From Caldilineaceae bacterium (GTDB lineage: Bacteria > Chloroflexota > Anaerolineae > Caldilineales > Caldilineaceae), in assembly GCA_965208365.1 (NCBI GenBank), contig OZ242330.1, forward strand, positions 3,431,031 to 3,495,030: a stretch of DNA of 64,000 bases, written 5' to 3'. This document shows positions 2,386-21,820 of the stretch, piece after piece; positions within the stretch are counted from its first letter, which is position 1; each line of letters starts with the position of its first letter. The position numbers and the translations under genes are program-made. The notes below the pieces were generated by a model that was given only the letters and a program-made list of their open reading frames with translations, had not been told where the DNA came from and searched no databases.

Positions 2386-3736
2386 CGGCGGTGTTCAGAA
2401 TACGGTGGATTTCCTCCTGCACCACATCCACGCTTGCCGGCAACTCCCGCAGAGGGTTGACCAGCGTGCTTTCCACTTCCTCCAGGCCTGCGAAGTGATA
2501 GTCCGTCTTGAACTTGGTGAACTTCAGGCCATGGGCTGTGCTTACAACCACGGCGCGGTCGTGTTCTCGGATTTGTTTCTGCTCCACGAGCTGCATCACG
2601 GCGGCCAGGGCAACTCCGGTGTGGGGACAGGTATACATGCCGGACCGATCCGCCAGGGCCGCGGCATTGGCCAGTTCGTGTTCGGTTACCGACACCACCA
2701 GGCCATCGGATTCCCGGATCGCCTTCACGGCCTTGTCATAGCTGACCGGATTGCCAATCTGAATGGCCGAGGCCAGCGTGGACTTGGCGGTCATGGGTTC
2801 GTATCCCACAAATCCGTTCAGGAAGTTCCGGTACAGCGGATTTGCCTTCTCCGCTTGGGCCGCCACCAAACGCGGCATCCTGTCGATTACACCCAATGTT
2901 CGCATCAGTTGGAAACCTTTGTACACGGCACTGATGTTGCCTAGGTTGCCCGCAGGCACGATCACCCAGTCGGGCACCTCCCATTCGAACTGCTGGACAA
3001 TCTCCATGGCCACGGTCTGTTGTCCTTCGATCCGCAGGCTGTTCATCGAGTTGGCCAGGTAAATGGACTGGTCGGCGGTGACGGCCTGCACCACCTGCAT
3101 GCAACCGTCGAAGTCCGTGTCCAGGGCCAGGACGTGGGCGCCGTTGGCAATCGGTTGAATGAGCTGGGCAGGACTGATTTTGCCCAAGGGCAGAAAGATG
3201 ATGGCGGGAATGCCGGCGGCGGCGGCATAGGCGGCCAAAGCCGCACTCGTGTCTCCGGTACTGGCGCAGGCCACGGCTCGGATGCCACTGCCACCGCGTT
3301 GGACGATGCGGTTGACCACACTTACCAGGACCGTCATGCCAAGATCCTTGAAGCTGCCCGTGTGGCTGTTACCGCACATCTTGACCCACAGATCCCCCAA
3401 CCCCAGATGCCGGCCCAGGGCATGGGCCCGAAACAGGTTGGTGTTGCCTTCGTACATGCTGACGATGTGATTGTCGGCCAGATCCGGCATGACCCACTCG
3501 CGGTAGCGCCATACACCGCTGCCTACGGGGTAGGTGCTGGATCCGTTGCGGCCGTCCAACAGGGTTCTCCACTCCCGGCCGGAACGGCTGGCCAGCCGTT
3601 GCAGATCGTGTTGAACCTCAAGCAGCCCATCGCAAGCCGGGCATCGGTACACGACCTCGTCGACGGAGTACGCGGCCGTGTTCCCGCAGCGATTGAAACA
3701 ACGCAGGGCGCTATGTTGGGTATCGTTTGCGAACAT
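2375..3736 (-). CDS. thrC: Threonine synthase
   Basis: PLP-lysine motif [15 protein letters not shown]. An N-terminal Cys pair resembles a zinc ribbon (CFNRCGN...YRCPACDG). I chose the ATG at 3736 because the track's first codon at 3787 is TTG. Confidence 0.9.
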
Positions 3737-3877
3737 CGCCCAGCATTCTGCCAGTTGTCGGTAGCTGGCGGCACAAGCCCCTTGCAATCGGGCCCGAATT
3801 GCCCACCTCCCCTAGAGGGGGGGATCCTGTCAGAAGCGGTGTGGATGGGACGGCGCGCGCACCATGCCCCGTGCCGC

Positions 3878-4357
3878 TCACTGAGCGGCGGGGACTGGAC
3901 GAATGCCCAGAAACACCTGTTTGCCGTTGAGGATCCGGAGGATTTCCTTCGGGGTCCACTGACTGCGGCGGGATGCCCCGGACTGCTCGAATATGCCGCT
4001 TAGCTCGATGGGCGACAAGGGTCTGTTGTCGTTGGACAGAAAGACCCTGAAACATGCAGCCGTCAGGGGCAGCGTGTCGTCAATGAAATCCGGTTGATGG
4101 GTGCAGTTGATCCGCAGGCACTCCGTCAGGGCATCCACCCGGCGGACCTCGCCGGTTTCCGCGTCCACCCAGTCGACCTCCTCCGTGTCCACATGGGTGC
4201 GAAACCGCTGTTGGCATTCGTCGCACAACTGCTGGTACAGGTGAAAGCGGTAGTCGAGGCTGCTGTTGGCCCACCACTCGTGGTCGATGTGGAACTCCGT
4301 GTCCTCACCCGGACCAAAGCGGTGGGATGCGTGGACGCGGGTTGACTGTTCTGACAT
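3878..4357 (-). CDS. Hypothetical protein (159 aa, several Cys/His, acidic)
   Basis: Long ORF with an ATG start, 52 nt downstream of the 544-aa ORF on the same strand. I recognise no motif. Confidence 0.5.
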   Translation of the reverse strand: MSEQSTRVHASHRFGPGEDTEFHIDHEWWANSSLDYRFHLYQQLCDECQQRFRTHVDTEEVDWVDAETGEVRRVDALTECLRINCTHQPDFIDDTLPLTAACFRVFLSNDNRPLSPIELSGIFEQSGASRRSQWTPKEILRILNGKQVFLGIRPVPAAQ

Positions 4358-4409
4358 CTTGCGGACGTATCTCCCTGAGGTCTCGGTCGGTGCCTTTCGT
4401 TGTGTGTGG

Positions 4410-6044
4410 TCAGTTGGTCAGTCCGAATTCACGGGGGTCGGACAGGCTGCGCAGGCGCGAATTGGAGGTCAGGGCGTGGATCACCAGACCGGGCGCATAG
4501 CGTTGGATGGCATTGACGACGCTGTACACGGTACTGGCGTGGACGGTGCTGTCCGGTTTCTTGAGGAGCTCCATCGCGACCTCCTCCACCAGGTTGAATA
4601 TGGAATTGCCGCTCTCGCGATTTCGGAAATGGGTTCTGTACTCGGCAAGTTTCTCCTCGTCCGTACAGGCAACGGCCTGATGCAAGTCCAGTTCGCAGCC
4701 GATGGTCATGATGGACTTGGTCCGGTCAATTTCAAGCCTGAGTGGCGCCGTTTCGCCGGGGGCCCCGTCCAGCAGGGGATCCTCAACCGCGTTCAGGGTC
4801 CAGAACCACTCCTGTTTTGGCCTACGCGTATTGAAGTTGAGGGTTATCGTCCCGTCCGAACGACGCTCGACATACAGGTTGGCACCGGCCGGGATGTTGT
4901 GGCTCAGGTAGTACTCCTCCAACCCGCAAATATAGCGGCCTTCGGGAACATACCAGCATTCCATCACCCCTCCGTGCACCGGATCGCGCATCTCGATCCG
5001 GGTCTTGAAGTCCGGATCAAGATCCAGGAGCTCCTCCATGGGACCGGTGACGGGCAATGTGCCGTGCAGCCTGTGGGGGTACAGGAGCACCAAATGAACC
5101 TGTCCCAGCGTGTCGAGTTGCGGCTGACGCTCCGACCACTCGTCCGCCAGGTTCGCCTCCAGGCTGAGTAGATCGTTGGTGAAAGTCGAATAGACGTAGT
5201 TGACCCTGACCGGCTGGAGCGCCATGGGTACGGAGCGGGCCGCCGCGGGAAGGCCGCTGGCTCGGTGCCAACAGGCAACGCCACCAGCCATGACTTCCTC
5301 GAACCGGGGATCCTGTGACAGTCCAATGTCGAGGCTCAGTTGCAGGAGTTCCGGGCTGAGTTCGTCGGCCTTCAAATCGAGGACGCCAAGGATTTCCGAG
5401 GACAAGACAGGTCGTTCCTCGTCGTAAATCTTGGCTTCCGCCATGTTCAGGCTGAATTCGTCCACTTCGACAAGCTGGTCGCGCAACAGCCATCCACCGT
5501 TCCATTCGATGAATTCTTCGGATCTCGGGCCCGCTTCCAGGGCATACCGAAGTGCATCCTCAATCTCTTCCTCGTGCTGTTCGAAGATTTCTTCCGAGGT
5601 GAGCATGCCAGCCGCACTGAAGTCCTCCTCGCCCAGGTCGTTGAGCGGATGCTTGGTTCTGAGCTGTGCGGCAAATTCACAGATTTCCTCGGGGTCGGAC
5701 ATCAGAACCTCAAGTACGGAGAACTTGCCGTGTTCGGGGTTGTAGCCGTTCCGAATGTCCATGACCATGCCGGTGCGGTAGTCCATGGCCGTGAACACAA
5801 GGGTTTGGTCCTTGGCGAATTTCTTGCCGGGCTGGTACATGGTGCCCAACTTCAGCATTTTTTCGATCTGACTGTTTTCGCGGGCCTGATAGTGTTCAAT
5901 CAGGCGGATGGCAAGCTTCTCGAACGGTGCAGGGGTGCCTAGTTGGCCGGTTGCCAGTTGCTCGTACAGAAAGTCAAGATCCCCGTCGGTGGCCGTAAAC
6001 TCGGATGTCCAGAAGTGGGGGTCCAACGTCTTGCGCAACATCAA
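4410..6044 (-). CDS. Hypothetical protein (544 aa, acidic, no TM segments)
   Basis: Uninterrupted 1.6-kb ORF. The first codon is TTG at 6044 and an ATG follows at 6041, with GGAG upstream. No recognisable catalytic motif. Confidence 0.6.
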   Translation of the reverse strand: MMLRKTLDPHFWTSEFTATDGDLDFLYEQLATGQLGTPAPFEKLAIRLIEHYQARENSQIEKMLKLGTMYQPGKKFAKDQTLVFTAMDYRTGMVMDIRNGYNPEHGKFSVLEVLMSDPEEICEFAAQLRTKHPLNDLGEEDFSAAGMLTSEEIFEQHEEEIEDALRYALEAGPRSEEFIEWNGGWLLRDQLVEVDEFSLNMAEAKIYDEERPVLSSEILGVLDLKADELSPELLQLSLDIGLSQDPRFEEVMAGGVACWHRASGLPAAARSVPMALQPVRVNYVYSTFTNDLLSLEANLADEWSERQPQLDTLGQVHLVLLYPHRLHGTLPVTGPMEELLDLDPDFKTRIEMRDPVHGGVMECWYVPEGRYICGLEEYYLSHNIPAGANLYVERRSDGTITLNFNTRRPKQEWFWTLNAVEDPLLDGAPGETAPLRLEIDRTKSIMTIGCELDLHQAVACTDEEKLAEYRTHFRNRESGNSIFNLVEEVAMELLKKPDSTVHASTVYSVVNAIQRYAPGLVIHALTSNSRLRSLSDPREFGLTN

Positions 6045-6355
6045 TCAGGAACTCCGAGTCGGCAGGGCGGAATCACGGGGAATCACAAGCTCGCTTTACA
6101 AAGCGTCGACCTGCCGCGGCAGGTCGACGCATACTGATAATTATACCATTGGATAGACTTGATGCCAGCACCAACCGAAATGCTTTACGCCGTTTCCGTC
6201 GCCCGGATGTCGGCCCTGAACCGCGCGCGATAACGGGAACGTTGCGGCACCTGCTGCCGGGACAACCGGTCTGGAACGGCTTTAACTCAAGCCACCTGGC
6301 CCTGTACGATTGGGCAGCCTTTCGTTCATAATGTCATCCGGCGTTCCAAGTCGAC

Positions 6356-7633
6356 TTGCAGGGAGCTGTTGACATCAAGACCTTGGCGATGATCCTGGCC
6401 GGAGGTGCCGGGACCCGGTTGATGTCCCTGACGGAGCAACGAGCCAAGCCCGCGGTTCCTTTCGCGGGCAAGTTTCGCATCATTGATTTCGCACTCAGCA
6501 ACTGCGTACATTCCGGCATTTCCACGGTCGGGGTCCTGACCCAGTATCAGCCGCACAGCCTTCAGGACCACTTGGGCATCGGCAAACCGTGGGATCTGGA
6601 CCGCGCGCAGGGCGGAATCCGCGTACTCCAGCCCTATACCGCGCCGGACGCTCAGGCTTGGTATACCGGTACTGCCGACGCCATCCTGCGCAACCTTTTT
6701 TTTATTGAGGATCATGATCCGGATGCTGTTCTCATCCTGTCGGGCGATCACATCTACAAGATGGACTATATGCCCATGCTAGAGCAGCATCGGCGCACTG
6801 AGGCCGACCTGACGGTCGCCGTCATGCCGGTGCCGCTGGAGGAAACGCCTCGGTTCGGCATTATGGAGACCGATGACGACAACCGGGTGGTGGAGTTCCA
6901 CGAAAAGCCGCCCGGCATGGACAAGGGCAACTTGGCCTCGATGGGGATTTACATCTTTTCGACGAACCGGTTGGTGCAACGTTTGCGGGAGGGCACGGAC
7001 GAGGATCCCCGCGACGATTTCGGCCAGCATGTCATTCCGGCCATGATCGAATGCAACGATCGGGTCTATGCCTTCAACTTCGATGGCTACTGGGTGGACG
7101 TGGGTACGTTGGACTCCTACTGGTCCACGAATCTGGACCTGCTGAAACCGGATCCGCCACTGGACATGTACACGCGGGAATGGCCCGTCCTGACCCGGTC
7201 CACCGAACACCCGCCGGCCAAGGTGTCGGCCCAGGCCCAGATTTCACGGTCGCTGGTCTGCAACGGGTCGGTGATCAAGGGCAAGGTCCACGACTCGGTA
7301 CTGAGCCCCGGGGTTCAGGTGAGCGTGGGCGCCGAGGTCGTCCGCAGTGTGCTCATGAGCGACACGTGGATTGGACCCGGGGTACGCATTGAGAACGCGA
7401 TCCTCGACAAGTCGGTTGTGGTCGCTGCCGGTGCTCGCATCGGTATGTCCGGTGACTGCGATCCCAACCAGGTTCATCCGGACCGGCTCCACACCGGACT
7501 AACCGTGGTGGGCAAGGGAGCCTTCATTCCCGATCACTGCGTCATCGGCGGCAACGTTCACATTGCAGCGGATGCCGACGCGTCGCACTTTCCGCCGGAC
7601 GGGGTCGTGGCGGACGGCTCCACCATCGGTTGA
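6356..7633 (+). CDS. glgC: Glucose-1-phosphate adenylyltransferase (catalytic-type subunit)
   Basis: [43 protein letters not shown] is the canonical GlgC N-terminal G-loop. A C-terminal left-handed beta-helix-type region follows. The start is uncertain: TTG at 6356, with an in-frame ATG at 6389. Confidence 0.9.
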
Positions 7634-12017: not shown

Positions 12018-13208
12018 ATGCTCCGTATTGACCTCAAACGACTGCTGGATGGCTGCTCCGACGACTCCTTCGACGCGGGCATCAAGATGGCTACAGTCCT
12101 GCAACCGCTGTCGGGGCCGGCTGGGCCTGTCAAACCGGCCGTGTACGCAGGTGGCCAGTACCAACTGGACAAGCGGTTCGCCGACACGTCCGATGCAGAA
12201 CCGACGCCGGTGATCGTCATTGACAACGTGCCTTCCCAAGCCAATCGCTTGGAAGATGCCCTACGTCGCAACCGGGAACAGCTTGGCCTCCCGGAGTTCC
12301 TCCTGGATTTGGCCGAGTTGGGAGCGTTGCCGTCGCATGTGCTCCGCTCGCTGTCCTCGTTCCAGTTTCCGCATCGCAATGCCGACGCCTACCTGCGTGA
12401 TTCGACTTGGGACGGCACCGATTTCCTCAAAACAGAGATTGGACAGTCCATTTTCGGGGCAACCGCCGGTGAGTGCGGCCCACTGATGTCATGGTTCCCG
12501 CAGGCCCTGCTGTACGGGTTCTGGCAATCCCATCTTGGCAAGAAACGGCACAACAGCAAGCATGCCCGCGCTTGGGTCTCGGAGATCATCGGCTGGAACC
12601 CCGCCGACACCGAGACCAGGACCTTTGGGCTGAAGGGCGATCCCCTGAACCTGAACATAGACGAGGAGGTGAGAGTCAACTCCAATGATCTGGGCGACTG
12701 GAGCATCGGCAAAGAGAACGGTACCAAGGCGGACAAACGTTCATCTTCAAAGCTTTCAGGCATCGGACATGGTCAAACACCGTTCACAGGCACCGATTCC
12801 GCGCTTGCTGCTGTGTCGTTCCAGCGCGTGACCCAGTTGGCCACCGTGTCGTTTGCCCAGCTTCGGCGTGTCAGTCTGGGGCGTGGCACCCCGCCCGCAA
12901 CCGACGCGGCCGCTCGTGCCCTGCTGGTGGCCATGGGCCTGCATGCCCATCGCATCGCCTTTGAGCGTGCGTTCTCGCTTCGATCAGGTGCGGACCTTCG
13001 CCCCCGGTCCACAATCAAGACATGGCTGGGCGTAGAGGACGAACCTTGTGAAGTCGAGTCAACAGGTTCGCTCCTGCAGGAAGCAAAGGCTCACGCCCTT
13101 GAAGTTGGTGTGCCATTGGCCGGATGGGACCAACCATCAACGGTGTTGAAACCCAAACCCAATTTGGCTAATGTCATCCGTTCCACTTGGCCAAAGAGCA
13201 CAGACTGA
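12018..13208 (+). CDS. csb1: CRISPR-associated Cas7u (Csb1 / GSU0053-family RAMP)
   Basis: 396 aa. The motifs PVKPAVYAGG, VPSQANRLEDAL and FPHRNADAYLRDS match my recollection of the Csb1 family. It is the first gene of an overlap-coupled cas operon, preceded by GGAGG 10 nt upstream of the ATG. Confidence 0.75.
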   Translation: MLRIDLKRLLDGCSDDSFDAGIKMATVLQPLSGPAGPVKPAVYAGGQYQLDKRFADTSDAEPTPVIVIDNVPSQANRLEDALRRNREQLGLPEFLLDLAELGALPSHVLRSLSSFQFPHRNADAYLRDSTWDGTDFLKTEIGQSIFGATAGECGPLMSWFPQALLYGFWQSHLGKKRHNSKHARAWVSEIIGWNPADTETRTFGLKGDPLNLNIDEEVRVNSNDLGDWSIGKENGTKADKRSSSKLSGIGHGQTPFTGTDSALAAVSFQRVTQLATVSFAQLRRVSLGRGTPPATDAAARALLVAMGLHAHRIAFERAFSLRSGADLRPRSTIKTWLGVEDEPCEVESTGSLLQEAKAHALEVGVPLAGWDQPSTVLKPKPNLANVIRSTWPKSTD

Positions 13209-14650
13209 TGTTCTCTGTTTCCGTAGAACTGTTGCATGGCGTGTTTCGGGGCGATGCGGACGGGACAGCCAACACCGGGCATCTGAGCAAGGGTGAGTGG
13301 CCGCCGTCACCCGCCCGTCTATTTGCTGCCTTTGTGGCGGCCGATGGCACCGGAATTGCGTGTCGCTTGACCGACGGATCGGAACTGGAATGGCTGGAAG
13401 GGCTGCAACCGCCCATCATCTACGCGGATCCTCAACCAACACATACGCCGATCCTTCCGCGGTACGTCGTTGAGCAACGCAAATCCGGCATCAAAAACCA
13501 ACACCAGGAATACCCGGCCCGCAAAGGGACACGCGTTTGGCCGGGCGTGCGTGTCTGCCCGCGCACACCCATGATCCACTACACATGGGACACACCAATC
13601 CCGCCAGCCGACATCTTCGCTGCGCTTCAACGACGTGCAGCGCGCATTGGCTACCTTGGTACGGCAGATTCCCCGGCGCGCGTACAGGTCCTGACGGACG
13701 ACAGATTGCTAGACCTGCCGGAATGCCAAGGGTTTGCCGCGTGCCCGGATGGTCAAATGCTGGTCAACGTCCCGCAACCCGGCGATCTTGCCATCTGGGA
13801 TCGGATGTACGAGCAATGGACCGAACGGGGGGCGGCTTTGAGTCGAACACAGTTTCATGCCCTGAAACACGAGGTCCGTTACCGCAACCCGGCAATGGAA
13901 GTGCAACCTCCGCTGGACCGCGGTCAGGTGGTGGTCTGGCTACGGGTGGAACCTGCAGTGTCCGGGCGGCGCGTCGCGGCCATGACTGAACTGTTCAAAA
14001 AGGCTTTGCTGGCCAAGTACCAGTTCACATATGGTGGACCGCCGGCGGTGTTGCACGGCCACGGCATCAACGGGAAGGGGCATGACGACCTTGCCCGGTA
14101 CTTGGCCCTTCCCGATGTCGGCTTCCAGTGGTCCAAAGGACTGATCCACGGACTGGCCTTGTGGATGCCACCGGGTTCCGAGTCGTTGGACCGTAGGCGA
14201 GCGCGTGACGCGGCCCTTTCAATTCGCACTCTGACGGGACGCGGCATCCAAGTCTCGGTAGTGTGCCAAGACAGTGCAATCCATCCACGGGCGACCCATC
14301 CCGATCGCTGGGAACGGAAGTCTCGCACATGGGCAACTGCTGTTCCTGCTATCCACGAACGTTGGCGAAGTCTCTCGTTGACCAACCTCGCGGTTTGGTG
14401 CGCTCATGCCGGATTGCCGGAACCGGTTGACTTCCGTGCCGCCCGCACCCCGCTCGTTCCTGGAGGGATTGATCTTGCACCTTCCGAGGTTCATCGCCCG
14501 GGAAGGCCCGTGCGACCCTACTCGCACATTGAAATCCGGTTTGAGGAACCCATACCGGGACCGGTTGTGTTCGGTGCAGGCCGCCAGCGAGGATTTGGGC
14601 TCTGTATCCCGATGGACGATTCCATACGCTCCTCAACCAGGACACAATGA
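13208..14650 (+). CDS. csb2: CRISPR-associated Cas5u/Cas6u fusion (Csb2 / GSU0054 family)
   Basis: N-terminus MFSVSVELLHGVFRGDADG....EWPPSPARLFAAFVAA is the family signature. The ATG at 13208 shares one base with the csb1 stop (TGATG). The track's upstream start at 13187 lies inside csb1. Confidence 0.75.
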   Translation: MFSVSVELLHGVFRGDADGTANTGHLSKGEWPPSPARLFAAFVAADGTGIACRLTDGSELEWLEGLQPPIIYADPQPTHTPILPRYVVEQRKSGIKNQHQEYPARKGTRVWPGVRVCPRTPMIHYTWDTPIPPADIFAALQRRAARIGYLGTADSPARVQVLTDDRLLDLPECQGFAACPDGQMLVNVPQPGDLAIWDRMYEQWTERGAALSRTQFHALKHEVRYRNPAMEVQPPLDRGQVVVWLRVEPAVSGRRVAAMTELFKKALLAKYQFTYGGPPAVLHGHGINGKGHDDLARYLALPDVGFQWSKGLIHGLALWMPPGSESLDRRRARDAALSIRTLTGRGIQVSVVCQDSAIHPRATHPDRWERKSRTWATAVPAIHERWRSLSLTNLAVWCAHAGLPEPVDFRAARTPLVPGGIDLAPSEVHRPGRPVRPYSHIEIRFEEPIPGPVVFGAGRQRGFGLCIPMDDSIRSSTRTQ

Positions 14651-17406
14651 TGCTCAAGCCGACATTCGCAGAGTTCTACCAGGCCTGCAACGGATACGAA
14701 CCTTTCCCCTGGCAGGACCGCTTAGCCAACAGCGTTGCTGAAACCGGTGCCTGGCCTGCGGAAATCGGAGTTCCGACCGGACTGGGCAAGACCTCGTGCC
14801 TTGACATTGCCGTGTGGTGGCTTGCTTCGCAAGCAGATCGGGAACCGGTTGCCCGCACTGCGCCGACGCGTATCTGGTGGGTTGTCAACCGCCGGTTGCT
14901 GGTGGATGCCACTGCGGATCACGCCCAACGCATAGCGGATATCCTTGAGGATCCGTGGAAAAAAGATGTTACCGGGCGGGAGTTGCAGACTGTGTTGGCG
15001 GTCCAGCAGCAACTCAGATTTCTCTCTGCCGGACGTGCACCGGCCTTGGATGTCATTCGGCTCCGCGGCGGCATTGCCGGGCGCACTCCAATCAATCCAT
15101 CTTGCCCTACCATCATCCTTTGCACCTTGCCCATGTACGGCTCGCGTTTGCTCTTTCGCACATACGGCTCACGGTTGCGTTCCGTCGATGCAGCAATGGC
15201 TGGGACAGACAGTTTGATCCTGCTGGATGAAGCACACCTCGCTCCCCACTTGCAGAACCTGATCCCGGCCCTCAATGAATGCATGCCGGGCACCGTATCG
15301 ATTCTCGGCGAACGTCGCTCCAGGCCTCAGTTGACATCCCTGACGGCAACTGGACGGGCGCAACCCGGACAACGGTTCGACCTGGACGACCGCGACAAGG
15401 CACATCCAATTGTCAAACAGCGCATCCATGCTGCAAAGCCGCTGGAAATCCGAGAGTGCAAGGGCGAGGCCGGAAAACATCTTGCCGAGGCGTGCTCCGA
15501 CCTACTCAAGGGCAGACCGCCCTCCGCTGTCATCGTTTTCGCTAACACGCCGGACACTGCCCGCAAAACCTTCGAGCGGGTTCGGAAACGGCATAGCCGG
15601 GAAGCCGAAGTCCTGCTGCTCACTGGCCGCCAGCGCGAGTGGGAAGCGGAACGGCTGCGGAAACGCATCCTAGACCCGCAGGAAGGCATGGTCGATACAT
15701 TCACCGTCCAACGCCGGCGGCATCTCATTGTCGTCGCAACGCAAACGTTGGAAGTGGGCGCAGACATCGATGCCGAGTACATGGTGTCCGAAGCGTGCGG
15801 AGTCCGGGCCCTTACGCAGAGACTGGGCCGCCTGAACCGCTTCGGACACCATGCCCATGCGCGTGCGGTGTATGTCCATATCCCGCCCAAAGGCAATAAG
15901 CCGAAAATATCCTGGCCGGTCTATGGTGTGGAGCCCTTGCAGGTTCTCGAGCGACTTCAGGGGGCTATTACAGAAGGCGGGACCAGCACGGTGGACCTGT
16001 CTCCTGCCAGGGCAGCCAAGGTCTTGGGAGATCCGGCCGACGGCATCGGACGCGCCTCGGAAATCATGCAGGGCATTTTGTGGGAGTGGGTGAAAACGAC
16101 CACCCCGCCCGAGGGCGAAGCCCCGGTAGAACCCTACTTCGCCGGCATCAGCGGAGCGCAGTACTCGGTGTCCTTGATCTGGCGGGCACATGTTCCGGAT
16201 CCGGAAGACGAAAACATACTCCGTCTCTGGCCTCGGACCACGGACAGGGAAGCGATGGAAGTCCCCATCCACGAAGTTCGGAGTGTGTTGGACCCCGCGG
16301 AAACCGTCTGTCGACTGGCCCTTGACAACCTCACAATCCAAGCAGCCACACCTGCGGATTTGCGACCGGGAGACCGCATTGTGTTGGCCATGGACCGCGG
16401 CCTGATGGACGATTTCGGTTGGAATCCCGAAGCATTCGATCCGGTCAGAGACATGTCTCTGACCGGGCAGGGATTGCCGCTTGACGCACAAGCAATTCAG
16501 CGTCTGTGTGGCATTGACGTTGGGCGATACATCGACACTTGCAACCAAGCGTTCAAGGCCGAGGGTGCAGACCAAGACGCTGGCGACAAGGCGGTTTCGG
16601 CACTCTTGGATGCAGTCCGGGCTGCTCCCGCACCGGCCGGATGGGAGTGGTCGGAGTGGGAGGATTTCCTCGATTCCTTGCAGCCGGATCCCAAGCGGTC
16701 ACGACGCAGCGTCCTGCGCTTGCACACGAACGACAACGACGGCACCTGGAATAGCAGCGACCTGGATGAAACATCGCTGGCTGTTGACGCAACCGGTTTG
16801 GATGCCCACGGCGAGGCGGTAGCAAACCTAGCCGCGCGGATCGCCGAGAGGATTGGTATTCCTCCGCCATTGGCCTGTGTGGCAGAGGCGGCGGGAAAAC
16901 TCCACGACATCGGCAAAGCCGATCATCGGTTTCAACGCTGGCTGCAATCCAGCTTCGAGCCGGGGCAGCTGCTGCGAGCCAAATCCAACACGCCCCGCCA
17001 TCGTTGGGATGCGACACGCGAGGCAGCAGGGTGGCCCAGCGGTGGGCGTCACGAAGAATTGTCTGCCCGTTTGGTCCTTGCCTGGCTGCAACAAGGCAAA
17101 CCCCCATTCAACCGGCGGGAACAAGACTTGCTCGTCCACCTGATCGCCAGCCATCATGGAAAAGCCCGTCCGTTCACGATGCCGGTTCCTGACGACAGCC
17201 CCGCGCAAGTGTCCAGTCTGATTGACGGCGTGCAGGTCCAGGTTTCCGCCAATCTTGCCGATCCGGACTGGGAGCAACCTACCCGGTTTTATCGGCTCAA
17301 CCAGTGGCTGGGACCCTGGGGGCTGTCCCTCATGGAAGCCATCGTCACACTTGCCGACCATACGGTATCTGCGGGGGAATACACCAATGAGGAACGCGAA
17401 CCATGA
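14647..17406 (+). CDS. cas3: Cas3 helicase-nuclease with C-terminal HD domain
   Basis: Walker A VPTGLGKTSCL and DEAH box LILLDEAHL. The HD domain sits at the C-terminus (GKLHDIGKADHRFQ ... HEELSARL ... LIASHHGKARP), the arrangement reported for type I-G/I-U Cas3. ATGA overlap with csb2. Confidence 0.9.
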   Translation: MMLKPTFAEFYQACNGYEPFPWQDRLANSVAETGAWPAEIGVPTGLGKTSCLDIAVWWLASQADREPVARTAPTRIWWVVNRRLLVDATADHAQRIADILEDPWKKDVTGRELQTVLAVQQQLRFLSAGRAPALDVIRLRGGIAGRTPINPSCPTIILCTLPMYGSRLLFRTYGSRLRSVDAAMAGTDSLILLDEAHLAPHLQNLIPALNECMPGTVSILGERRSRPQLTSLTATGRAQPGQRFDLDDRDKAHPIVKQRIHAAKPLEIRECKGEAGKHLAEACSDLLKGRPPSAVIVFANTPDTARKTFERVRKRHSREAEVLLLTGRQREWEAERLRKRILDPQEGMVDTFTVQRRRHLIVVATQTLEVGADIDAEYMVSEACGVRALTQRLGRLNRFGHHAHARAVYVHIPPKGNKPKISWPVYGVEPLQVLERLQGAITEGGTSTVDLSPARAAKVLGDPADGIGRASEIMQGILWEWVKTTTPPEGEAPVEPYFAGISGAQYSVSLIWRAHVPDPEDENILRLWPRTTDREAMEVPIHEVRSVLDPAETVCRLALDNLTIQAATPADLRPGDRIVLAMDRGLMDDFGWNPEAFDPVRDMSLTGQGLPLDAQAIQRLCGIDVGRYIDTCNQAFKAEGADQDAGDKAVSALLDAVRAAPAPAGWEWSEWEDFLDSLQPDPKRSRRSVLRLHTNDNDGTWNSSDLDETSLAVDATGLDAHGEAVANLAARIAERIGIPPPLACVAEAAGKLHDIGKADHRFQRWLQSSFEPGQLLRAKSNTPRHRWDATREAAGWPSGGRHEELSARLVLAWLQQGKPPFNRREQDLLVHLIASHHGKARPFTMPVPDDSPAQVSSLIDGVQVQVSANLADPDWEQPTRFYRLNQWLGPWGLSLMEAIVTLADHTVSAGEYTNEEREP

Positions 17407-18296
17407 TCCAAGTGCAATGTCCGGGCCTACCTGCGGATTGGGTGAATGCCTGGCTCGCAGCAATTGGCGCAACCCTGTTGGATCACCGCATTCGGTTGCA
17501 CTGGACATCCCAGGGTTCGCCTGTGGCCGTACTCTCTGCACAGGGCACCGACCCAGTTGAGTGCCTGATTGAGTCGTGGCCTGATGCGGGGTTTCTGGCC
17601 GATCTGCCCGTCGCGGAGACGTGGAGCGGAACTGCTGCAGTCAAGCGCAAAGTTCCAGTTGAGGCTTTCAGGGAGCGTGTCCAGGCAGCCCGCGGCCATC
17701 GCCACGCATGGACGCTGTCATCCACGATGACAGACCTCTGTGTCGATCAAGACGGGTATGTGGCGCACGCACCTTTCGACCCGCCCGCGCCGAAGGGTGC
17801 CTACCTCCATCAGAGATTGGTGAGAGTCCACGAGCATGTGGATCCAAACGCAAACCACATTCAAGATGCGCTGAGGGGGCAACCGCTTCTCGTGAAGAAC
17901 AACGGACTGGGGTTCGATCAAGGTCGCCTCGCCTCTTCGTCCGACGCAACATCCCCTCTGGTCAATCCCGTCGTCGAAGTGCTTGCCTTCTTTGGTCTTT
18001 GCCTACTGCCGGTAAGGGGACCAGGAACCGACAGACGTTTGGACGGCCGTGCCAACATCGCTGAGCAACAGAGGGGTTTTATGCCGTTGAAGGTTGGAGT
18101 GCGTCGCAACTTTCACTGGCCCGCATGGACCCCGCCGCTTGGTCGAGACGGCATCGACGCGCTCCTAGACTCTTGGGATCCCGCCCAGCAGGCCAGATGG
18201 CCCCTGCTGGGTATCCATTCAGCGTGGCAGAGTGTCCAGTACCAACATCAAGGTGCGCTGGATGCCACACGCGCATTTGGATCTGCACGCCTATGA
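17403..18296 (+). CDS. Candidate Cas8u-type large subunit, unusually short (Csx17/Csb3-like by position)
   Basis: 297 aa, embedded in the operon with ATGA overlaps on both sides. The N-terminal GLPADWVNAWLAAIGATLL and the internal NPVVEVLAFFGLCLLP resemble Csx17-type motifs as I remember them. The assignment is mainly positional. Confidence 0.45.
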   Translation: MIQVQCPGLPADWVNAWLAAIGATLLDHRIRLHWTSQGSPVAVLSAQGTDPVECLIESWPDAGFLADLPVAETWSGTAAVKRKVPVEAFRERVQAARGHRHAWTLSSTMTDLCVDQDGYVAHAPFDPPAPKGAYLHQRLVRVHEHVDPNANHIQDALRGQPLLVKNNGLGFDQGRLASSSDATSPLVNPVVEVLAFFGLCLLPVRGPGTDRRLDGRANIAEQQRGFMPLKVGVRRNFHWPAWTPPLGRDGIDALLDSWDPAQQARWPLLGIHSAWQSVQYQHQGALDATRAFGSARL

Positions 18297-18910
18297 CACC
18301 CGAACCTGTCGTTCTGATCTCCGCTATCGAGCACTTTATCTACTGCCCGCGGCAATGCGCGTTGATCCATTGCGACGGTGTGTGGAGTGACAATGCCCAC
18401 ATCGTTCGGGGAACACGCGCACATCGGCGTGTAGATAGTGGGAAGCACCGGCAGGAACGAGGCTGGAAGGTTCTGCGTTCCATACCCCTCTGGTCAGATA
18501 CTCTGGGATTGTCCGGCCGCGCCGATGCCATCGAGATGAGAGGTGGGGAAGTTCGCCCCGTCGAATACAAGTCGGGTGTACGGCACGGTTCAGCAGCGGA
18601 TTTCCAAGTTTGCGCCCAAGCCCTTTGCCTGGAGGAAATGCTGGGTGTACATATTCCCTACGGGTTTGTCTGGTACGGGGGGCCCCGGCGTCGCGAGAAG
18701 GTTGAATTCTCTCCAGTGTTGCGTCGAGACGTGTGCGATGTCATTGAGCAAATCAGGACACAGTTGCTGACGACTGCACTGCCGGATGCACCCAACGACG
18801 CCCGTTGTACGGAGTGCCAGCTGTTGCACCACTGTCTGCCCCAACTCACAAGTGCTCCACACACTGTGACCGACTACATGACATCCGTGGTGTTCCAATG
18901 CGACTCTTGA
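18293..18910 (+). CDS. cas4: Cas4 (RecB-like nuclease with 4-Cys Fe-S cluster)
   Basis: N-terminal CPRQC plus C-terminal CTECQLLHHC. Nuclease core DAIEMRGGEVRPVEYKSG. The ATG at 18293 overlaps the upstream stop (ATGA) and is in frame with track ORF 18125..18910. Confidence 0.9.
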   Translation: MTPEPVVLISAIEHFIYCPRQCALIHCDGVWSDNAHIVRGTRAHRRVDSGKHRQERGWKVLRSIPLWSDTLGLSGRADAIEMRGGEVRPVEYKSGVRHGSAADFQVCAQALCLEEMLGVHIPYGFVWYGGPRRREKVEFSPVLRRDVCDVIEQIRTQLLTTALPDAPNDARCTECQLLHHCLPQLTSAPHTVTDYMTSVVFQCDS

Positions 18911-19917
18911 GCACCGTCTATATTCGGGATCATCGAGCCCGCGTGCGTCACAGCCAGGGTTCTCTGATCGTCGACGCGCCAGCCGGCAAGCAGCGCATCC
19001 CATTGGAATCCGTGGATACCCTTGTCATTCTGGGCAACGCACAAATTACATCGCAGGCCCTTGGTGTCTGCGCGCAACGAGGAGTCACTGTCGCCGCCTT
19101 GCACATGGGCGGGAGCGTCCGGTTCACCGTGTCGGGAGCCAAAAGCGGGAACATCAACTTGCGCCTGGCCCAGTTCGATGCGGCCACGGACGACAGGAAG
19201 TCTGTGGTCATCGCCAAGTCCATTGTTGCGGCCAAAGTCCAAAACAGCGCGATGGTGGTCGACAGATGGGCACGGGACGAGAAGGATGCAGGGCATGCGG
19301 AGCAACTTGCTGAGCGTGCCTCCCAGATCAAGAACCGCGTTGCACGGTTGGCGGATGCTGATTCCGCCAACCTGGTAAGGGGCATTGAGGGGGATGTTGC
19401 ACGAATCTACTTCCGTGCGCTTGGACAGGCAGTATCAAACACGGGGTTTGAGTTCACGGCCAGGACAAGACGGCCACCCAGGGATCCGGTCAACGCTCTG
19501 CTGGGATTTTGCTACGCCCTACTCGTGACAGAATGTACCGGAGCTGCAGAAAGCGTCGGCCTTGACTTCCAGTTGGGCTTTCTGCATCGACCTCGTTCGG
19601 GGCGGCCATCGCTTGCGCTGGACATCACCGAAGAGTTTCGGGCACTCACGGATCGGTTTGCCGTGTCGCTGATGCGCCGGAAGCAGATTAGCGCAGACAA
19701 CTTCGAGCACACACCCGGCGGTGCGGTCTACCTCACCAACGAAGGAAAAAAGCGGTTGCTCCAAGCGTGGGAGGCGCACAAGGACAAAGACATTCGCCAC
19801 CGTCTACTGGGGCGTCCAGTGGGCCGGTGGGCACTGCCCGCGGTTCAAGCTACACTTTTGGCCAGACACTTGCGCGGAGATATCCCTGCGTACCCGCCTT
19901 TCATCCTACCGTGGTGA
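18898..19917 (+). CDS. cas1: Cas1 integrase
   Basis: GIEGDVARIYF, RRPPRDPVNALLGFCYALL and GFLHRPRSGRPSLALDITEEFR. The ATG at 18898 overlaps the cas4 3' end by 13 nt, in a different frame, so the two are not fused. Confidence 0.95.
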   Translation: MRLLSTVYIRDHRARVRHSQGSLIVDAPAGKQRIPLESVDTLVILGNAQITSQALGVCAQRGVTVAALHMGGSVRFTVSGAKSGNINLRLAQFDAATDDRKSVVIAKSIVAAKVQNSAMVVDRWARDEKDAGHAEQLAERASQIKNRVARLADADSANLVRGIEGDVARIYFRALGQAVSNTGFEFTARTRRPPRDPVNALLGFCYALLVTECTGAAESVGLDFQLGFLHRPRSGRPSLALDITEEFRALTDRFAVSLMRRKQISADNFEHTPGGAVYLTNEGKKRLLQAWEAHKDKDIRHRLLGRPVGRWALPAVQATLLARHLRGDIPAYPPFILPW

Positions 19918-19920
19918 TCA

Positions 19921-20217
19921 ATGGACGTGCTGGTTACCTACGACATCGCCGATACCGACGAGGAAGAAGGAGCGAAACGCTTGAGGCGCATCGCCAAGGT
20001 CTGCCAGAAGTACGGGCAACGTGTCCAGTTCTCGGTGTTCGAGTGCCGCGTATCCAACACACAACTGGAACGAATGATCGGCGAGGTTGAGGATGTCTTC
20101 GACAAGTCCTGTGACTCTGTCATCATCTACCGCTTCCCCGGTGAGATGGAGAGTGCTACACTGCGTCTTGGTTGCGACAAACAGGAACGGAAACTCGGCG
20201 AACCGTGGATCCTGTGA
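19921..20217 (+). CDS. cas2: Cas2
   Basis: 98 aa. MDVLVTYDI...RLRRIAKVCQKYGQRVQFSVFECRV is the typical Cas2 ferredoxin fold. It begins 3 nt after the cas1 stop. Confidence 0.9.
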   Translation: MDVLVTYDIADTDEEEGAKRLRRIAKVCQKYGQRVQFSVFECRVSNTQLERMIGEVEDVFDKSCDSVIIYRFPGEMESATLRLGCDKQERKLGEPWIL

Positions 20218-20347: not shown

Positions 20348-21340
20348 CTGTCTCTGGGGTTCATGCCCCAGACTTCGTTGAGCGGGAGCAGATCGTGTCG
20401 GCGACGCGTGCCCTGGCCCACTGTCTCTGGGGTTCATGCCCCAGACTTCGTTGAGCGAGGCCTGCCGGCCGGAACCCACGGCCGACACCGTCTGTCTCTG
20501 GGGTTCATGCCCCAGACTTCGTTGAGCGCGTACACAACAAGCTGTACTGCAAGACCGTCTGCAACTGTCTCTGGGGTTCATGCCCCAGACTTCGTTGAGC
20601 GCGCACCCGAACTGCCTGTGCTTCCTTACGCCAAGGCCTGTCTCTGGGGTTCATGCCCCAGACTTCGTTGAGCGCTAGTCCTTTGGAGAGAACCACGCCG
20701 CCTCCGGGTCTGTCTCTGGGGTTCATGCCCCAGACTTCGTTGAGCGATCCCGTCACCGTCCAAACCATCGGACCGCGGGAAACAACTGTCTCTGGGGTTC
20801 ATGCCCCAGACTTCGTTGAGCGGATCACTCTCGCATCCGACGCCCTCGACGTAACCACCACTGTCTCTGGGGTTCATGCCCCAGACTTCGTTGAGCGGTG
20901 GAACCATCTGGCCGTACCGACGGGGTCCGGCAACTCTGTCTCTGGGGTTCATGCCCCAGACTTCGTTGAGCGGGGAAACATAGGCACTGCCACTGTTCGA
21001 TCCCGTCTCTGTCTCTGGGGTTCATGCCCCAGACTTCGTTGAGCGGTCTATCCGACCTGGATCCCGCAGGGCACGGACCAGGACTGTCTCTGGGGTTCAT
21101 GCCCCAGACTTCGTTGAGCGGACAATTGCGAGAGCTGGACCCTGCGGCTGTGCAATACTGTCTCTGGGGTACATACCCCAGACTTCGTTGAGCGCAGCCT
21201 TCGTTGCGGAACACGGCCGCGCCGATGCCCTGTCTCTGGGGGTTCATGCCCCAGACTTCGTTGAGCGGGCGGATATGCCGGCAGGGCTGCGCCTGATCGT
21301 TGACTGTCTCTGGGGTACATACCCCAGACTTCATTGAACG
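20348..21340 (+). CRISPR. CRISPR array: 14 repeats of 37 bp, 13 spacers of 34-39 bp
   Basis: Repeat consensus is CTGTCTCTGGGGTTCATGCCCCAGACTTCGTTGAGCG. It has an internal 7-bp stem TCTGGGG/CCCCAGA, a loop TTCATG and a 12-nt 3' tail. Repeat starts: 20348, 20421, 20492, 20565, 20638, 20710, 20786, 20861, 20936, 21009, 21084, 21158, 21230, 21304. Repeats 1-11 are identical. R12 has 2 loop substitutions, R13 has one extra G (38 bp) and R14 has 4 substitutions. Confidence 0.97.
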
Positions 21341-21820
21341 CACCAAATCCCGCGCCCTCCCAATTGCCCAACAAATCTGTTGTTGGTCCCCCCCCCAATT
21401 TCTCGACTCTGACCGCGAGTGGTGCGATCTGGCCAGTCTGATCTGGGTCAAATACGAACGTCGCTGTGGTGATCGGGTCGAGATGAACGTCTGCTGCTTT
21501 ATTTCCAGCCTGTCCCCAAGGCCAAGCTCCTATGGCAAGCCGCCGCCGGGCATCGAATACGAACACCACAGGGTACTGGCTGTCGTCTCTGGTGAGGACG
21601 ACAGCCGCATCCGCACGGGCCACGCGGTTCACAACATGGCCATCCCAAGCACATCGCCTACAATCTGCCGCCGCAAGCGTCCATCAAAGTAGGCATCGCC
21701 AACAAGCGGCTGGCAGCGGCTTGGAACCAGGGCTGCCTGTGTTGGCTGGCTGGTCTCAAGCCCAAACCTATTTGGCTCGACTTTATGCAAAGTCGAGTTT
21801 ACATGCAATCGTCCTGTCCC

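What the first reader, a model, noticed from the sequence alone, without database searches (positions are those of the whole stretch)
17403..18296. 297-aa protein occupying the large-subunit (Cas8) position: a miniature or novel Cas8u?
The locus has no other candidate large subunit. This ORF is locked into the operon by ATGA overlaps with cas3 upstream and cas4 downstream. As far as I recall, Cas8u2/Csx17 proteins are roughly twice this size. Only short stretches (GLPADWVNAWLAAIGATLL; NPVVEVLAFFGLCLLP) are reminiscent of Csx17. It may be a truncated or minimal Cas8u, a Csb3-type protein, or an unrelated accessory protein. Any of these bears on how PAM recognition and Cas3 recruitment work in this system.
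Basis: inference. Interest (0 to 1): 0.7.

Follow-up and report, generated by a model that had tools for sequence, protein, structure and literature searches.

The report
Short Cas8g-type large subunit, type I-G
The 297-residue gene between cas3 and cas4 is a real, conserved member of an already catalogued family of half-size large subunits in one variant of type I-G CRISPR systems, so it is ordinary as a find even though nobody has shown how such a small subunit works.

Summary
The ORF at 17403-18296 (+) is real.

It is not a new kind of protein:
- It matches NCBIfam NF049934 ("type I-G CRISPR-associated protein, Cas3-extension family") over its full length, at 69.9 bits against a cutoff of 65.
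- It gives a partial match to the short PADLOC "Cas8g, large subunit" profile PDLC01514.
- More than 1000 homologues of about 300 aa exist.
- In about 80 genomes from at least 10 phyla the operon csb1-csb2-cas3-ORF-cas4-cas1-cas2 keeps the same order. The ORF stays with the effector genes in loci where no adaptation genes were detected.

A confident AlphaFold model (pLDDT 96) is a single alpha/beta domain. Its only significant PDB match is Cas8g in the type I-G effector 8b2x (Foldseek E 1e-4, probability 1.0, TM 0.56). No Cas11-like helical bundle is present.

Bifidobacterium Csb3 sits in the same position and co-purifies with Csb1, Csb2 and crRNA. It is only a remote relative, linked through the actinobacterial branch of the family.

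Best reading: a minimal Cas8g, equivalent to the N-terminal domain only. It most likely docks on the Csb1/Csb2-crRNA backbone and holds Cas3. This is a new member of a known kind, of modest interest.

The parts
17403..18296 (+). ORF297: short Cas8g-type large subunit (NF049934 / PADLOC PDLC01514 family). It corresponds to the N-terminal domain of Cas8g and has no Cas11-like C-terminal bundle.
   Evidence: ORF; profiles; homologues; AF2 pLDDT 96.3; Foldseek top hit 8b2x Cas8g
17389..17406 (+). Coupling junction between cas3g and ORF297: GAGGA 9 nt upstream of the start, and ATGA holding the start and stop overlap.
   Evidence: sequence. The same kind of junction (TGATG/ATGA/GTGA with GGAG upstream) is seen in most related loci.
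18293..18296 (+). Coupling junction between ORF297 and cas4: ATGA overlap.
   Evidence: GTGA or ATGA sits at the same junction in most related loci.
12018..13208 (+). csb1 / cas7g (backbone subunit)
   Evidence: TIGR02570 62.6 bits; PF09617; Cas7g
13187..14650 (+). csb2 (Cas5-Cas6 fusion)
   Evidence: TIGR02165 193 bits full length; Cas56g
14647..17406 (+). cas3g (helicase with C-terminal HD nuclease)
   Evidence: TIGR02621 580.7 bits full length; HD domain at residues 718-843
18293..18910 (+). cas4 (stand-alone, not fused to cas1)
   Evidence: TIGR00372 122 bits; PF01930
18895..19917 (+). cas1 (start approximate)
   Evidence: PF01867 294 bits
19921..20217 (+). cas2
   Evidence: PF09827 81.5 bits
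20348..21340 (+). CRISPR array: 14 repeats of about 37 nt (CTGTCTCTGGGGTTCATGCCCCAGACTTCGTTGAGCG). Two of the three copies furthest from cas2 are degenerate.

Best explanation
ORF297 is the large-subunit equivalent of a known type I-G variant whose operon runs csb1-csb2-cas3-X-cas4-cas1-cas2. It is a single alpha/beta domain homologous to the N-terminal domain of Cas8g (Csx17). It lacks the Cas11-like helical C-terminal domain.

Proposed mechanism:
1. It is translated in step with Cas3g through the overlapping stop and start. The overlap is shown in the sequence. The equal dosage is inferred.
2. It docks on the Csb1 (Cas7g) / Csb2-crRNA backbone near the 5' handle. This is inferred from the position of the Cas8g N-terminal domain in the T. 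sulfidiphilus effector.
3. It is the adaptor that keeps Cas3g bound to the complex. This is inferred from three results: Cas3 joins the T. sulfidiphilus complex only when Cas8g is present; Bifidobacterium Csb3 co-purifies with Csb1, Csb2 and crRNA; and cell-free expression (TXTL) data indicate Cas3 in complex with the B. lactis I-G Cascade.
4. It probably takes part in PAM reading, perhaps together with the Cas5-like half of Csb2. This step is speculative.
5. How the displaced strand is held without any Cas11-like module is not explained.
For: Family membership:
- NF049934 matched over the full length, above its cutoff. 116 of 118 family members match it.
- 101 of 118 members match PADLOC PDLC01514 'Cas8g; effector_LS'. 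4 match the 'Cas8u2 large subunit' profile.
- The Azotobacter homologue matches PDLC01514 at 134 bits over its full length.
- hhalign gives 99.6% probability, E 3e-24, between this clade (A2) and the actinobacterial 'Cas3-extension' branch (A3).

Structure:
- The AF2 model has pLDDT 96.3 and is one mixed alpha/beta domain. Its longest helix is 13 residues.
- Foldseek against the PDB gives one significant hit, the 649-residue chain of 8b2x (type I-G effector): E 1.1e-4, probability 1.00, TM 0.56 normalised by the query.
- The next hit is a chain of the I-B Cascade (8ip0_J) whose size fits only Cas8b.

Genomic context:
- The gene follows cas3 in essentially all 80 related loci. This also holds in Thermus, Azotobacter, Streptomyces and Rhodothermus plasmids and in B. 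animalis.
- It stays with csb1-csb2-cas3 where no adaptation-gene homologues were detected (L004, L031, L045, L074) or none are annotated downstream (Azotobacter and Thermus plasmids).
- Its divergence across the clade (50-61% identity) tracks that of cas3 and csb2.

Literature:
- Cas8g is needed for Cas3 to co-purify with the I-G complex, and its N-terminal domain contacts Cas7.1/7.2 and crRNA (PMC9638904).
- I-G large subunits vary in size, and Csb3 is presumed to be the large subunit.
- Csb3 co-purifies with Csb1, Csb2 and crRNA and has no RNase activity (bioRxiv 10.1101/2022.08.19.504415).
- CRISPRone labels the Thermus gene after cas3 as cas8U1 (PMC5529391).
Against: - No sequence-level link to Csx17 was found for the window protein. 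NCBIfam at E<=1 returns only NF049934. HMM searches of PDB sequences do not find the 8b2x chain.
- The Cas8g coordinates in 8b2x are themselves an AlphaFold model docked into a map of about 8 A. The fold match is therefore model against model.
- I could not see which residues of Cas8g were aligned. 'N-terminal domain' is inferred from the secondary-structure type and from size.
- The window protein's own match to the PADLOC Cas8g profile is partial (29 bits, best stretch 232-280).
- The experimental evidence comes from Csx17 and from Csb3. Csb3 is only a remote relative (A2 vs A4 probability 9%; A3 vs A4 82%).
- NCBI's curators named the family as an adjunct of Cas3, not as Cas8.
Confidence: 0.75

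Rival explanations
1. It is a Cas3 cofactor only, a detached 'extension' of Cas3g that modulates the helicase or nuclease. It is not a Cascade subunit. In that case this variant has no large subunit and recruits Cas3 without Cas8, as type I-F2 does.
For: NCBIfam names the family 'Cas3-extension', model adjac_Cas3_IG. The gene always follows cas3 and is translationally coupled to it. Cas8-independent Cas3 recruitment exists in I-F2 (PMC12956352, listed).
Against: The predicted fold matches Cas8g, a Cascade subunit. The remote relative Csb3 co-purifies with Csb1, Csb2 and crRNA in a construct without Cas3. No Cas3 fusion appeared among the 150 listed cluster representatives or in 80 loci. In canonical I-G, Cas8g also follows cas3 and binds both partners. 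The two readings are therefore not exclusive.
Confidence: 0.13
2. It is a RAMP (Cas6-like) RNA-binding protein. This was first proposed for the Csb3 family from secondary-structure prediction.
For: Makarova et al. [quoted passage not shown] The model begins with a beta-alpha-beta-beta-alpha unit. Weak, non-significant Foldseek hits include proteins that I recall, without testing, as built on RRM or palm-type folds: primase catalytic subunits, a cyclase and mCpol.
Against: No Cas5, Cas6 or Cas7 structure appears among the 50 Foldseek hits shown. The only significant hit is Cas8g. Purified Csb3 has no RNase activity. Csb2 already supplies Cas5 and Cas6 domains. No RAMP profile matched in Pfam, NCBIfam or PADLOC.
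Confidence: 0.05
3. It is an adaptation-module accessory that works with Cas4-Cas1-Cas2, for example in PAM-aware spacer selection, since it is also coupled to cas4.
For: ATGA or GTGA overlap with the cas4 start is conserved across the clade.
Against: In loci where no cas4, cas1 or cas2 homologues were detected (L004, L031, L045, L074), or where none are annotated downstream (Azotobacter and Thermus plasmids), the gene stays next to cas3 with csb1 and csb2. Between the window and its nearest relative L001 it is 70% identical, whereas cas4, cas1 and cas2 are 92-98% identical, so it does not travel with them.
Confidence: 0.04

Closest known systems
NCBIfam NF049934 (adjac_Cas3_IG), 'type I-G CRISPR-associated protein, Cas3-extension family'. 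The same proteins match PADLOC PDLC01514 'Cas8g; CAS-I-U effector_LS', and CRISPRone labels the Thermus member cas8U1.
   Same: Full-length match above the curated cutoff. Same size, about 300 aa. Same position directly after cas3g. Homology to the actinobacterial members that carry this name is 99.6% by hhalign. Members occur in Streptomyces, Azotobacter, Thermus and Rhodothermus plasmids.
   Different: The window protein belongs to a divergent clade. It scores 69.9 bits against a cutoff of 65, and the best E-value in the clade is 5e-25. Streptomyces and Azotobacter members score 150-167 bits. In this clade cas4 and cas1 are separate genes, whereas Rhodothermus and Bifidobacterium have the fusion.
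Cas8g1 / Csx17, the large subunit of canonical type I-G (Thioalkalivibrio sulfidiphilus, PDB 8b2x; Geobacter sulfurreducens Cas8u2)
   Same: It is the only significant structural match: Foldseek E 1.1e-4, probability 1.00, TM 0.56. Both are encoded right after cas3g (for the Mycobacterium locus). Four family members also match the PADLOC Cas8u2 profile.
   Different: It is half the size, 297 aa against 649-698 aa. It has no Cas11-like helical C-terminal domain. No HMM-level similarity was found for the window protein. The gene order differs: cas3-cas8g-cas7-csb2 in canonical I-G against csb1-csb2-cas3-X here.
Csb3 of Bifidobacterium animalis type I-G (PADLOC PDLC01374 'Cas8g; effector_UNK')
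   Same: Same slot, csb1-csb2-cas3-csb3. Similar size: 348 aa, 39 kDa. It is a remote collinear relative of the actinobacterial branch of the family (hhalign 82%, E 1e-5). It is experimentally a crRNA-complex subunit without RNase activity.
   Different: It is a separate, narrow family of 38 proteins, mostly Bifidobacterium. It has no NF049934 hit. The direct comparison with the window clade is not significant (probability 9%, E 0.004).
Type I-F2 (Cas8-less and Cas11-less Cascade)
   Same: Both are pared-down type I effectors without a Cas11 module (abstract).
   Different: I-F2 has no large subunit at all. This system keeps a Cas8g-like domain.

Membership tests
NCBIfam NF049934 (type I-G Cas3-extension family) | Score at or above the curated whole-protein cutoff (65 bits), with near full-length coverage of the 299-position model | tested here: met
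   69.9 bits, residues 7-284 against profile positions 2-290. 116 of 118 clade members also match.
NCBIfam NF049934 (type I-G Cas3-extension family) | Encoded immediately next to cas3g in a type I-G locus | tested here: met
   ATGA overlap with the cas3g stop. Same adjacency in 80 related loci.
Type I-G large subunit (Cas8g, broad sense) | Match to a profile curated as the I-G (I-U) large subunit | tested here: met
   PADLOC PDLC01514 'Cas8g; effector_LS' at E 1.8e-7, but only 29 bits and partial for the window protein. 101 of 118 relatives match, with best E 3.5e-15. The Azotobacter relative scores 134 bits over its full length.
Type I-G large subunit (Cas8g, broad sense) | Fold of the Cas8g N-terminal alpha/beta domain | tested here: met
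   Foldseek top and only significant PDB hit is the 649-residue chain of 8b2x: E 1.1e-4, probability 1.00, TMq 0.56. Caveat: that chain is a docked AlphaFold model.
Type I-G large subunit (Cas8g, broad sense) | Physical subunit of the crRNA complex; needed for PAM-dependent DNA binding and Cas3 association | not testable with these tools
   Shown only for Csx17 (PMC9638904) and, for complex formation, for Csb3.
Cas8g1 / Csx17 (canonical I-G large subunit) | Two-domain protein of about 650-700 aa with a C-terminal Cas11-like helical bundle | tested here: not met
   297 aa. One compact mixed alpha/beta domain with pTM 0.93, longest helix 13 residues, and beta strands up to residue 296.
Cas8g1 / Csx17 (canonical I-G large subunit) | Sequence match to Csx17 / Cas8u2 profiles | tested here: not met
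   At E<=1, neither NCBIfam nor PADLOC returned a second family for the window protein. 4 of 118 relatives touch PADLOC PDLC01103 'Cas8u2'. I did not confirm that NCBIfam holds a Csx17 model.
Csb3 (Bifidobacterium I-G) | Match to the Csb3 profile (PADLOC PDLC01374) or significant similarity to Csb3 sequences | tested here: not met
   The window protein matches only PDLC01514. hhalign of A2 against the Csb3 alignment A4 gives probability 8.9%, E 0.0037. The link is remote and runs through the actinobacterial branch (81.8%, E 1.1e-5).
Csb3 (Bifidobacterium I-G) | Position directly after cas3 in a csb1-csb2-cas3 operon | tested here: met
   B. animalis contig L087: csb2 767-2404, cas3 2356-5448, csb3 5452-6498. 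The window has the same order.
Cas11 (small subunit), as an internal product of the gene | Helical bundle of about 100-150 aa encoded at the 3' end, with an internal start | tested here: not met
   The C-terminal third is beta-rich and is part of the single domain. I made no explicit scan for internal start sites.

The most novel reading that the evidence does not exclude
In this widespread I-G variant the half-size protein and Cas3g form a pre-assembled module, made together through translational coupling. That module would replace the Cas8 C-terminal domain and Cas11 altogether. Cas3 itself, rather than a 'belly' of small subunits, would handle the displaced strand. This would be a distinct and very compact architecture for a Cas3-integral type I effector: four proteins and no Cas11 module.
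Probability: 0.25. Interest if true: 0.55.

Novelty: new member of a known kind. Interest (0 to 1): 0.3.

Why it matters
The protein family is already in annotation libraries, so the gene itself is not a discovery. Two points remain useful.

First, NCBI names the family only as an adjunct of Cas3, while the Makarova-derived profiles in PADLOC call it a large subunit. The confident model and its match to Cas8g reported here favour the large-subunit reading. I did not find this fold match described in the papers I read.

Second, this variant lacks any Cas11-like module, and no structure or biochemistry exists for this short family itself. How it reads the PAM, stabilises the R-loop and holds Cas3 is therefore open.

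The variant is compact, with four effector proteins. It is found in cultured organisms (Thermus, Rhodothermus, Azotobacter, Streptomyces), so the questions can be tested. It may also interest people who build Cas3-based editing tools.

Tried and rejected
1. The first AlphaFold run used 26 close homologues (A1) and gave pLDDT 44.7. I discarded it. The 118-sequence alignment (A2) gave pLDDT 96.3.
2. Sequence searches of the PDB with the single protein, A2 and A3 found nothing related. The ubiquitin-conjugating enzyme (E2), lipase-chaperone and other hits at E 0.1-1 are noise.
3. Pfam has no model for the protein.
4. tblastn of the protein against plasmids found nothing. Using Csb2 as the probe located plasmid-borne relatives of the system.
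5. hhalign of A2 against the single Thermus or single Csb3 sequence was uninformative. Profile-against-profile comparisons were needed.
6. I looked for Cas3 fusions that would explain the name 'Cas3-extension'. None appeared among the 150 listed representatives, whose longest member is 403 aa, nor in 80 loci. The long upstream open frames seen in some loci are a GC-content effect, because cas3 is in another frame.
7. I looked for a hidden small-subunit or large-subunit gene upstream of csb1. There was no tblastx or blastn conservation, and no conserved ORF other than the start of csb1 itself.
8. Foldseek against viral proteins (BFVD) gave nothing significant.
9. Makarova et al. 2020 (PMC8905525) is not held, so I could not read the Cas8g variant nomenclature at source.
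10. Considered and dropped: the idea that the long Cas3g compensates for the missing Cas8 C-terminal domain. The full-length match to the 854-position model named after Geobacter GSU0051 shows the long form is not peculiar to this variant. My recollection, untested, is that Geobacter has a full-size Csx17.
Full report
**Observation**

The cas3g ORF ends at 17406, so the tetranucleotide ATGA at 17403-17406 carries both the ORF's start and the cas3 stop. A GAGGA lies 9 nt upstream. The ORF's TGA at 18294-18296 overlaps the ATG at 18293, from which Cas4 homology runs.

The surrounding operon is:

| Gene | Window coordinates |
|---|---|
| csb1/cas7g | 12018-13208 |
| csb2 | 13187-14650 |
| cas3g, with C-terminal HD domain | 14647-17406 |
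| ORF297 | 17403-18296 |
| cas4 | 18293-18910 |
| cas1 | about 18895-19917 |
| cas2 | 19921-20217 |
| CRISPR array, 14 repeats of about 37 nt | 20348-21340 |

These assignments rest. There is no other large-subunit candidate. The 775 bp upstream of csb1 contain no ORF with a family hit, and nothing there is conserved in related loci. The 731-aa ORF beyond the array is an O-antigen-ligase-type membrane protein.

**Is it a real, conserved gene?**

Yes. A search of 5.8 billion proteins gave 1077 homologues at E<=1e-3, and the best 120 are all about 299 aa. An exhaustive profile search of 1.84 billion cluster representatives gave 263 clusters at 50% identity. Among the 150 listed, most complete members are 270-330 aa and none is longer than 403 aa.

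A scan of one genome per species returned 80 loci. tblastn with the window's seven Cas proteins shows the same order, csb1-csb2-cas3-ORF-cas4-cas1-cas2, in essentially all of them. The junctions are conserved too. The cas3 stop and ORF start form TGATG, ATGA or GTGA, with GGAG about 8 nt upstream. The ORF stop and cas4 start form GTGA or ATGA.

In several loci no cas4, cas1 or cas2 homologue was detected (L004, L031, L045, L074), yet the ORF remains beside cas3 with csb1 and csb2. The Azotobacter and Thermus plasmids likewise show no annotated adaptation genes downstream of it. This places the gene in the effector module rather than the adaptation module. Its divergence across the clade (50-61% identity) is like that of cas3 (49-59%) and csb2 (51-61%).

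**What family is it?**

- Pfam has nothing.
- NCBIfam gives one hit: NF049934, model name adjac_Cas3_IG, 'type I-G CRISPR-associated protein, Cas3-extension family'. The score is 69.9 bits against a curated cutoff of 65, covering residues 7-284 against positions 2-290 of a 299-position model.
- PADLOC gives one hit: PDLC01514, 'Cas8g; CAS-I-U; effector_LS', a 287-position profile, at E 1.8e-7, but partial.
- Across a 118-sequence alignment of the family (A2), 116 members match NF049934 and 101 match PDLC01514. Four also touch PDLC01103, 'Cas8u2, new large subunit family'.

Using Csb2 as a probe I found the same operon on plasmids of Rhodothermus marinus, Thermus thermophilus, Streptomyces and Azotobacter chroococcum. 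Each has an unnamed protein of about 320-356 aa directly after cas3u. Their profile matches are:

| Plasmid homologue | NF049934 | PDLC01514 |
|---|---|---|
| Azotobacter chroococcum | 152 bits | 134 bits, full length |
| Streptomyces | 167 bits | 57 bits |
| Thermus thermophilus | 59 bits | 53 bits |

The Rhodothermus protein, which spans the plasmid origin, matches HMMs built from A2 and A3 (E 1.7e-12 and 2.5e-17). NCBI and UniRef name the Streptomyces branch 'type I-G CRISPR-associated protein, Cas3-extension family'. A profile-profile comparison of that branch (A3) with the window's clade (A2) gives 99.6% probability, E 3e-24, over the full length. A comparative paper on Thermus lists the gene after cas3 as cas8U1 (PMC5529391).

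**Structure**

A first model built from 26 close homologues was useless, with pLDDT 44.7. With the 118-sequence alignment the model has pLDDT 96.3 and pTM 0.93. It is one compact mixed alpha/beta domain. The longest helix is 13 residues, and beta strands run up to residue 296, so no Cas11-like helical bundle is present.

[quoted passage not shown] The figures are E 1.1e-4, probability 1.00, and TM 0.56 normalised by the query. According to the paper, that entry contains seven Cas7 subunits, crRNA and Cas8g, so the 649-residue chain is Cas8g.

The next hit (E 0.22) is a 467-residue chain of the I-B Cascade. By subunit sizes it can only be Cas8b. A 333-residue chain of the I-A Cascade is tenth, and I did not verify its identity. 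No Cas5, Cas6 or Cas7 structure appears among the 50 hits shown. The viral structure library gave nothing.

Two caveats apply. The Cas8g coordinates in 8b2x are an AlphaFold model docked as rigid bodies into a map of about 8 A. I also could not see the residue ranges aligned. That ORF297 corresponds to the N-terminal domain is inferred from its alpha/beta character and its size.

**Relation to Csb3**

The literature calls the third Cascade subunit of Bifidobacterium type I-G 'Csb3' and presumes it is the large subunit. To test the relation directly, I took the csb3 cloning primer from the supplement of bioRxiv 10.1101/2022.08.19.504415 and searched metagenome contigs with it.

On contig L087 the order is csb1 (partial), csb2 (545 aa, the length given in that preprint), cas3g, then csb3 at 5452-6498 (348 aa), three bases after the cas3 stop. 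This is the same slot as ORF297.

Csb3 is a separate family, however. It has no NCBIfam hit. It matches a different PADLOC profile, PDLC01374 'Cas8g; effector_UNK', at 469 bits. It has only 38 homologues, mostly Bifidobacterium.

Profile-profile comparison of a Csb3 alignment (A4) with the actinobacterial branch A3 gives 81.8% probability, E 1.1e-5, collinear over the full length. Against the window's clade A2 it gives only 8.9%, E 0.0037, over one segment. ORF297 is thus a positional equivalent of Csb3 and probably a remote relative, but not a Csb3-family member.

**How it most likely works**

Shown:
- the coupling to cas3;
- retention with the effector genes;
- the Cas8g-like predicted fold;
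- the absence of a helical C-terminal domain.

Taken from experiments on relatives:
- In T. sulfidiphilus the backbone (Csb2, Cas7, crRNA) assembles without Cas8g, and Cas8g then binds it. Cas3 co-purifies only when Cas8g is present. The Cas8g N-terminal domain contacts Cas7.1, Cas7.2 and crRNA (PMC9638904).
- In B. animalis, Csb3 co-purifies with Csb1, Csb2 and crRNA and has no RNase activity.
- Cell-free expression (TXTL) data suggested that Cas3 is in complex with the B. lactis I-G Cascade (PMC9335239).

Inferred: ORF297 docks on the Csb1/Csb2-crRNA backbone and tethers Cas3g. It probably contributes to PAM reading, perhaps together with the Cas5-like half of Csb2, as Cas5b and Cas8b do in type I-B.

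Not explained: what stabilises the displaced strand without a Cas11-like module. I put 0.75 on the large-subunit reading.

**Rivals**

- A pure Cas3 cofactor, with the effector lacking a large subunit as in I-F2, is possible (0.13). The fold match and the Csb3 pull-down, which was done without Cas3, argue against it.
- The early idea that Csb3 is a Cas6-like RAMP (PMC3150331) finds no support in the fold search or the profiles (0.05).
- An adaptation accessory is unlikely, because the gene stays with cas3 in loci without detectable adaptation genes (0.04).

**Novelty and verdict**

Short large-subunit variants of type I-G are acknowledged in print, and the family has curated profiles in two libraries. 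This ORF is a divergent member of that family. The fold-level link to Cas8g, the remote link to Csb3 and the conserved coupling to cas3 clarify the family, but they do not define a new kind of system. I rate it a new member of a known kind, with interest 0.3.

Noticed in passing
window 12018-20217; loci L001-L080: The whole operon recurs with identical gene order at only 50-70% protein identity in metagenome-assembled genomes labelled as at least ten phyla. These include Chloroflexota, Acidobacteriota/Vicinamibacterales, Rhodothermales, Rhodobacterales, Gammaproteobacteria, Spirochaetia, Gemmatimonadota, Latescibacterota and Candidatus Synechococcus spongiarum. The Candidatus Synechococcus spongiarum record points to marine-sponge symbionts, and I recall, without checking, that other bins come from sponge-microbiome studies. 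This suggests the system spreads horizontally within one habitat. The nearest relative is an uncultured Caldilineaceae contig (L001).
   Followed up: partly
window 17620-18216 against L001: Between the window and its closest relative L001, nucleotide identity falls to 61-74% in the middle and 3' part of ORF297, while the flanking cas3 3' end and cas4/cas1/cas2 are 85-95% identical. At protein level ORF297 is 70% identical, against 96%, 92% and 98% for Cas4, Cas1 and Cas2. This is a local hot spot of divergence or a recombination patch inside the large-subunit gene.
   Followed up: partly
window 18293-19917: cas4 and cas1 are separate, slightly overlapping genes here and throughout the clade. 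A Cas4-Cas1 fusion is usually quoted as a hallmark of type I-G and is present in the Rhodothermus and Bifidobacterium versions. The Cas1 scores higher against the I-C Cas1 model (347 bits) than against the Cas4g/Cas1g fusion model (280 bits).
   Followed up: no
window 20348-21340: Two of the three array copies furthest from cas2 carry substitutions (GGGGTACATACCCC instead of GGGGTTCATGCCCC, plus two more changes in the last copy). This suggests that the leader and the active end lie on the cas2 side. The long minus-strand ORFs 20825-21451 and 21048-21632 are artefacts of the repeats.
   Followed up: no
L082 13247-14317 (Streptomyces sp. NBC_00513 plasmid NZ_CP107846.1): The homologue is annotated as a 253-aa protein starting at 13556, with a probably spurious 82-aa gene on the opposite strand covering its true 5' part. 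The open frame is 356 aa and starts 3 nt after the cas3u stop.
   Followed up: yes
L081/L083 (Rhodothermus marinus pRMAR01, NC_013502.1, across the record origin): A homologue of about 320 aa lies across the start of the circular record, between cas3u and the cas4-cas1 fusion. It is therefore missing from the gene table. It matches HMMs built from A2 and A3 (E 1.7e-12 and 2.5e-17).
   Followed up: yes
PADLOC profiles PDLC01514, PDLC01374, PDLC01103: Three unrelated-looking profiles are all named 'Cas8g', with role tags LS, UNK and 'Cas8u2 new large subunit family'. They correspond to the short family found here, to Bifidobacterium Csb3 and to a longer Cas8u2 large-subunit family, presumably Csx17. 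NCBI calls the first one 'Cas3-extension family' and has no model for Csb3. The naming of I-G large subunits is inconsistent across resources.
   Followed up: partly
window 12018-13208 and related loci: Csb1/Cas7g in this variant is about 390-410 aa (window 396, Streptomyces 396, Azotobacter 392, Rhodothermus 410; B. animalis 43 kDa). The Cas7 of a canonical I-G locus with a long Cas8g (Mycobacterium) is about 319 aa. Whether the extra length relates to the missing Cas8 C-terminal domain was not examined.
   Followed up: no
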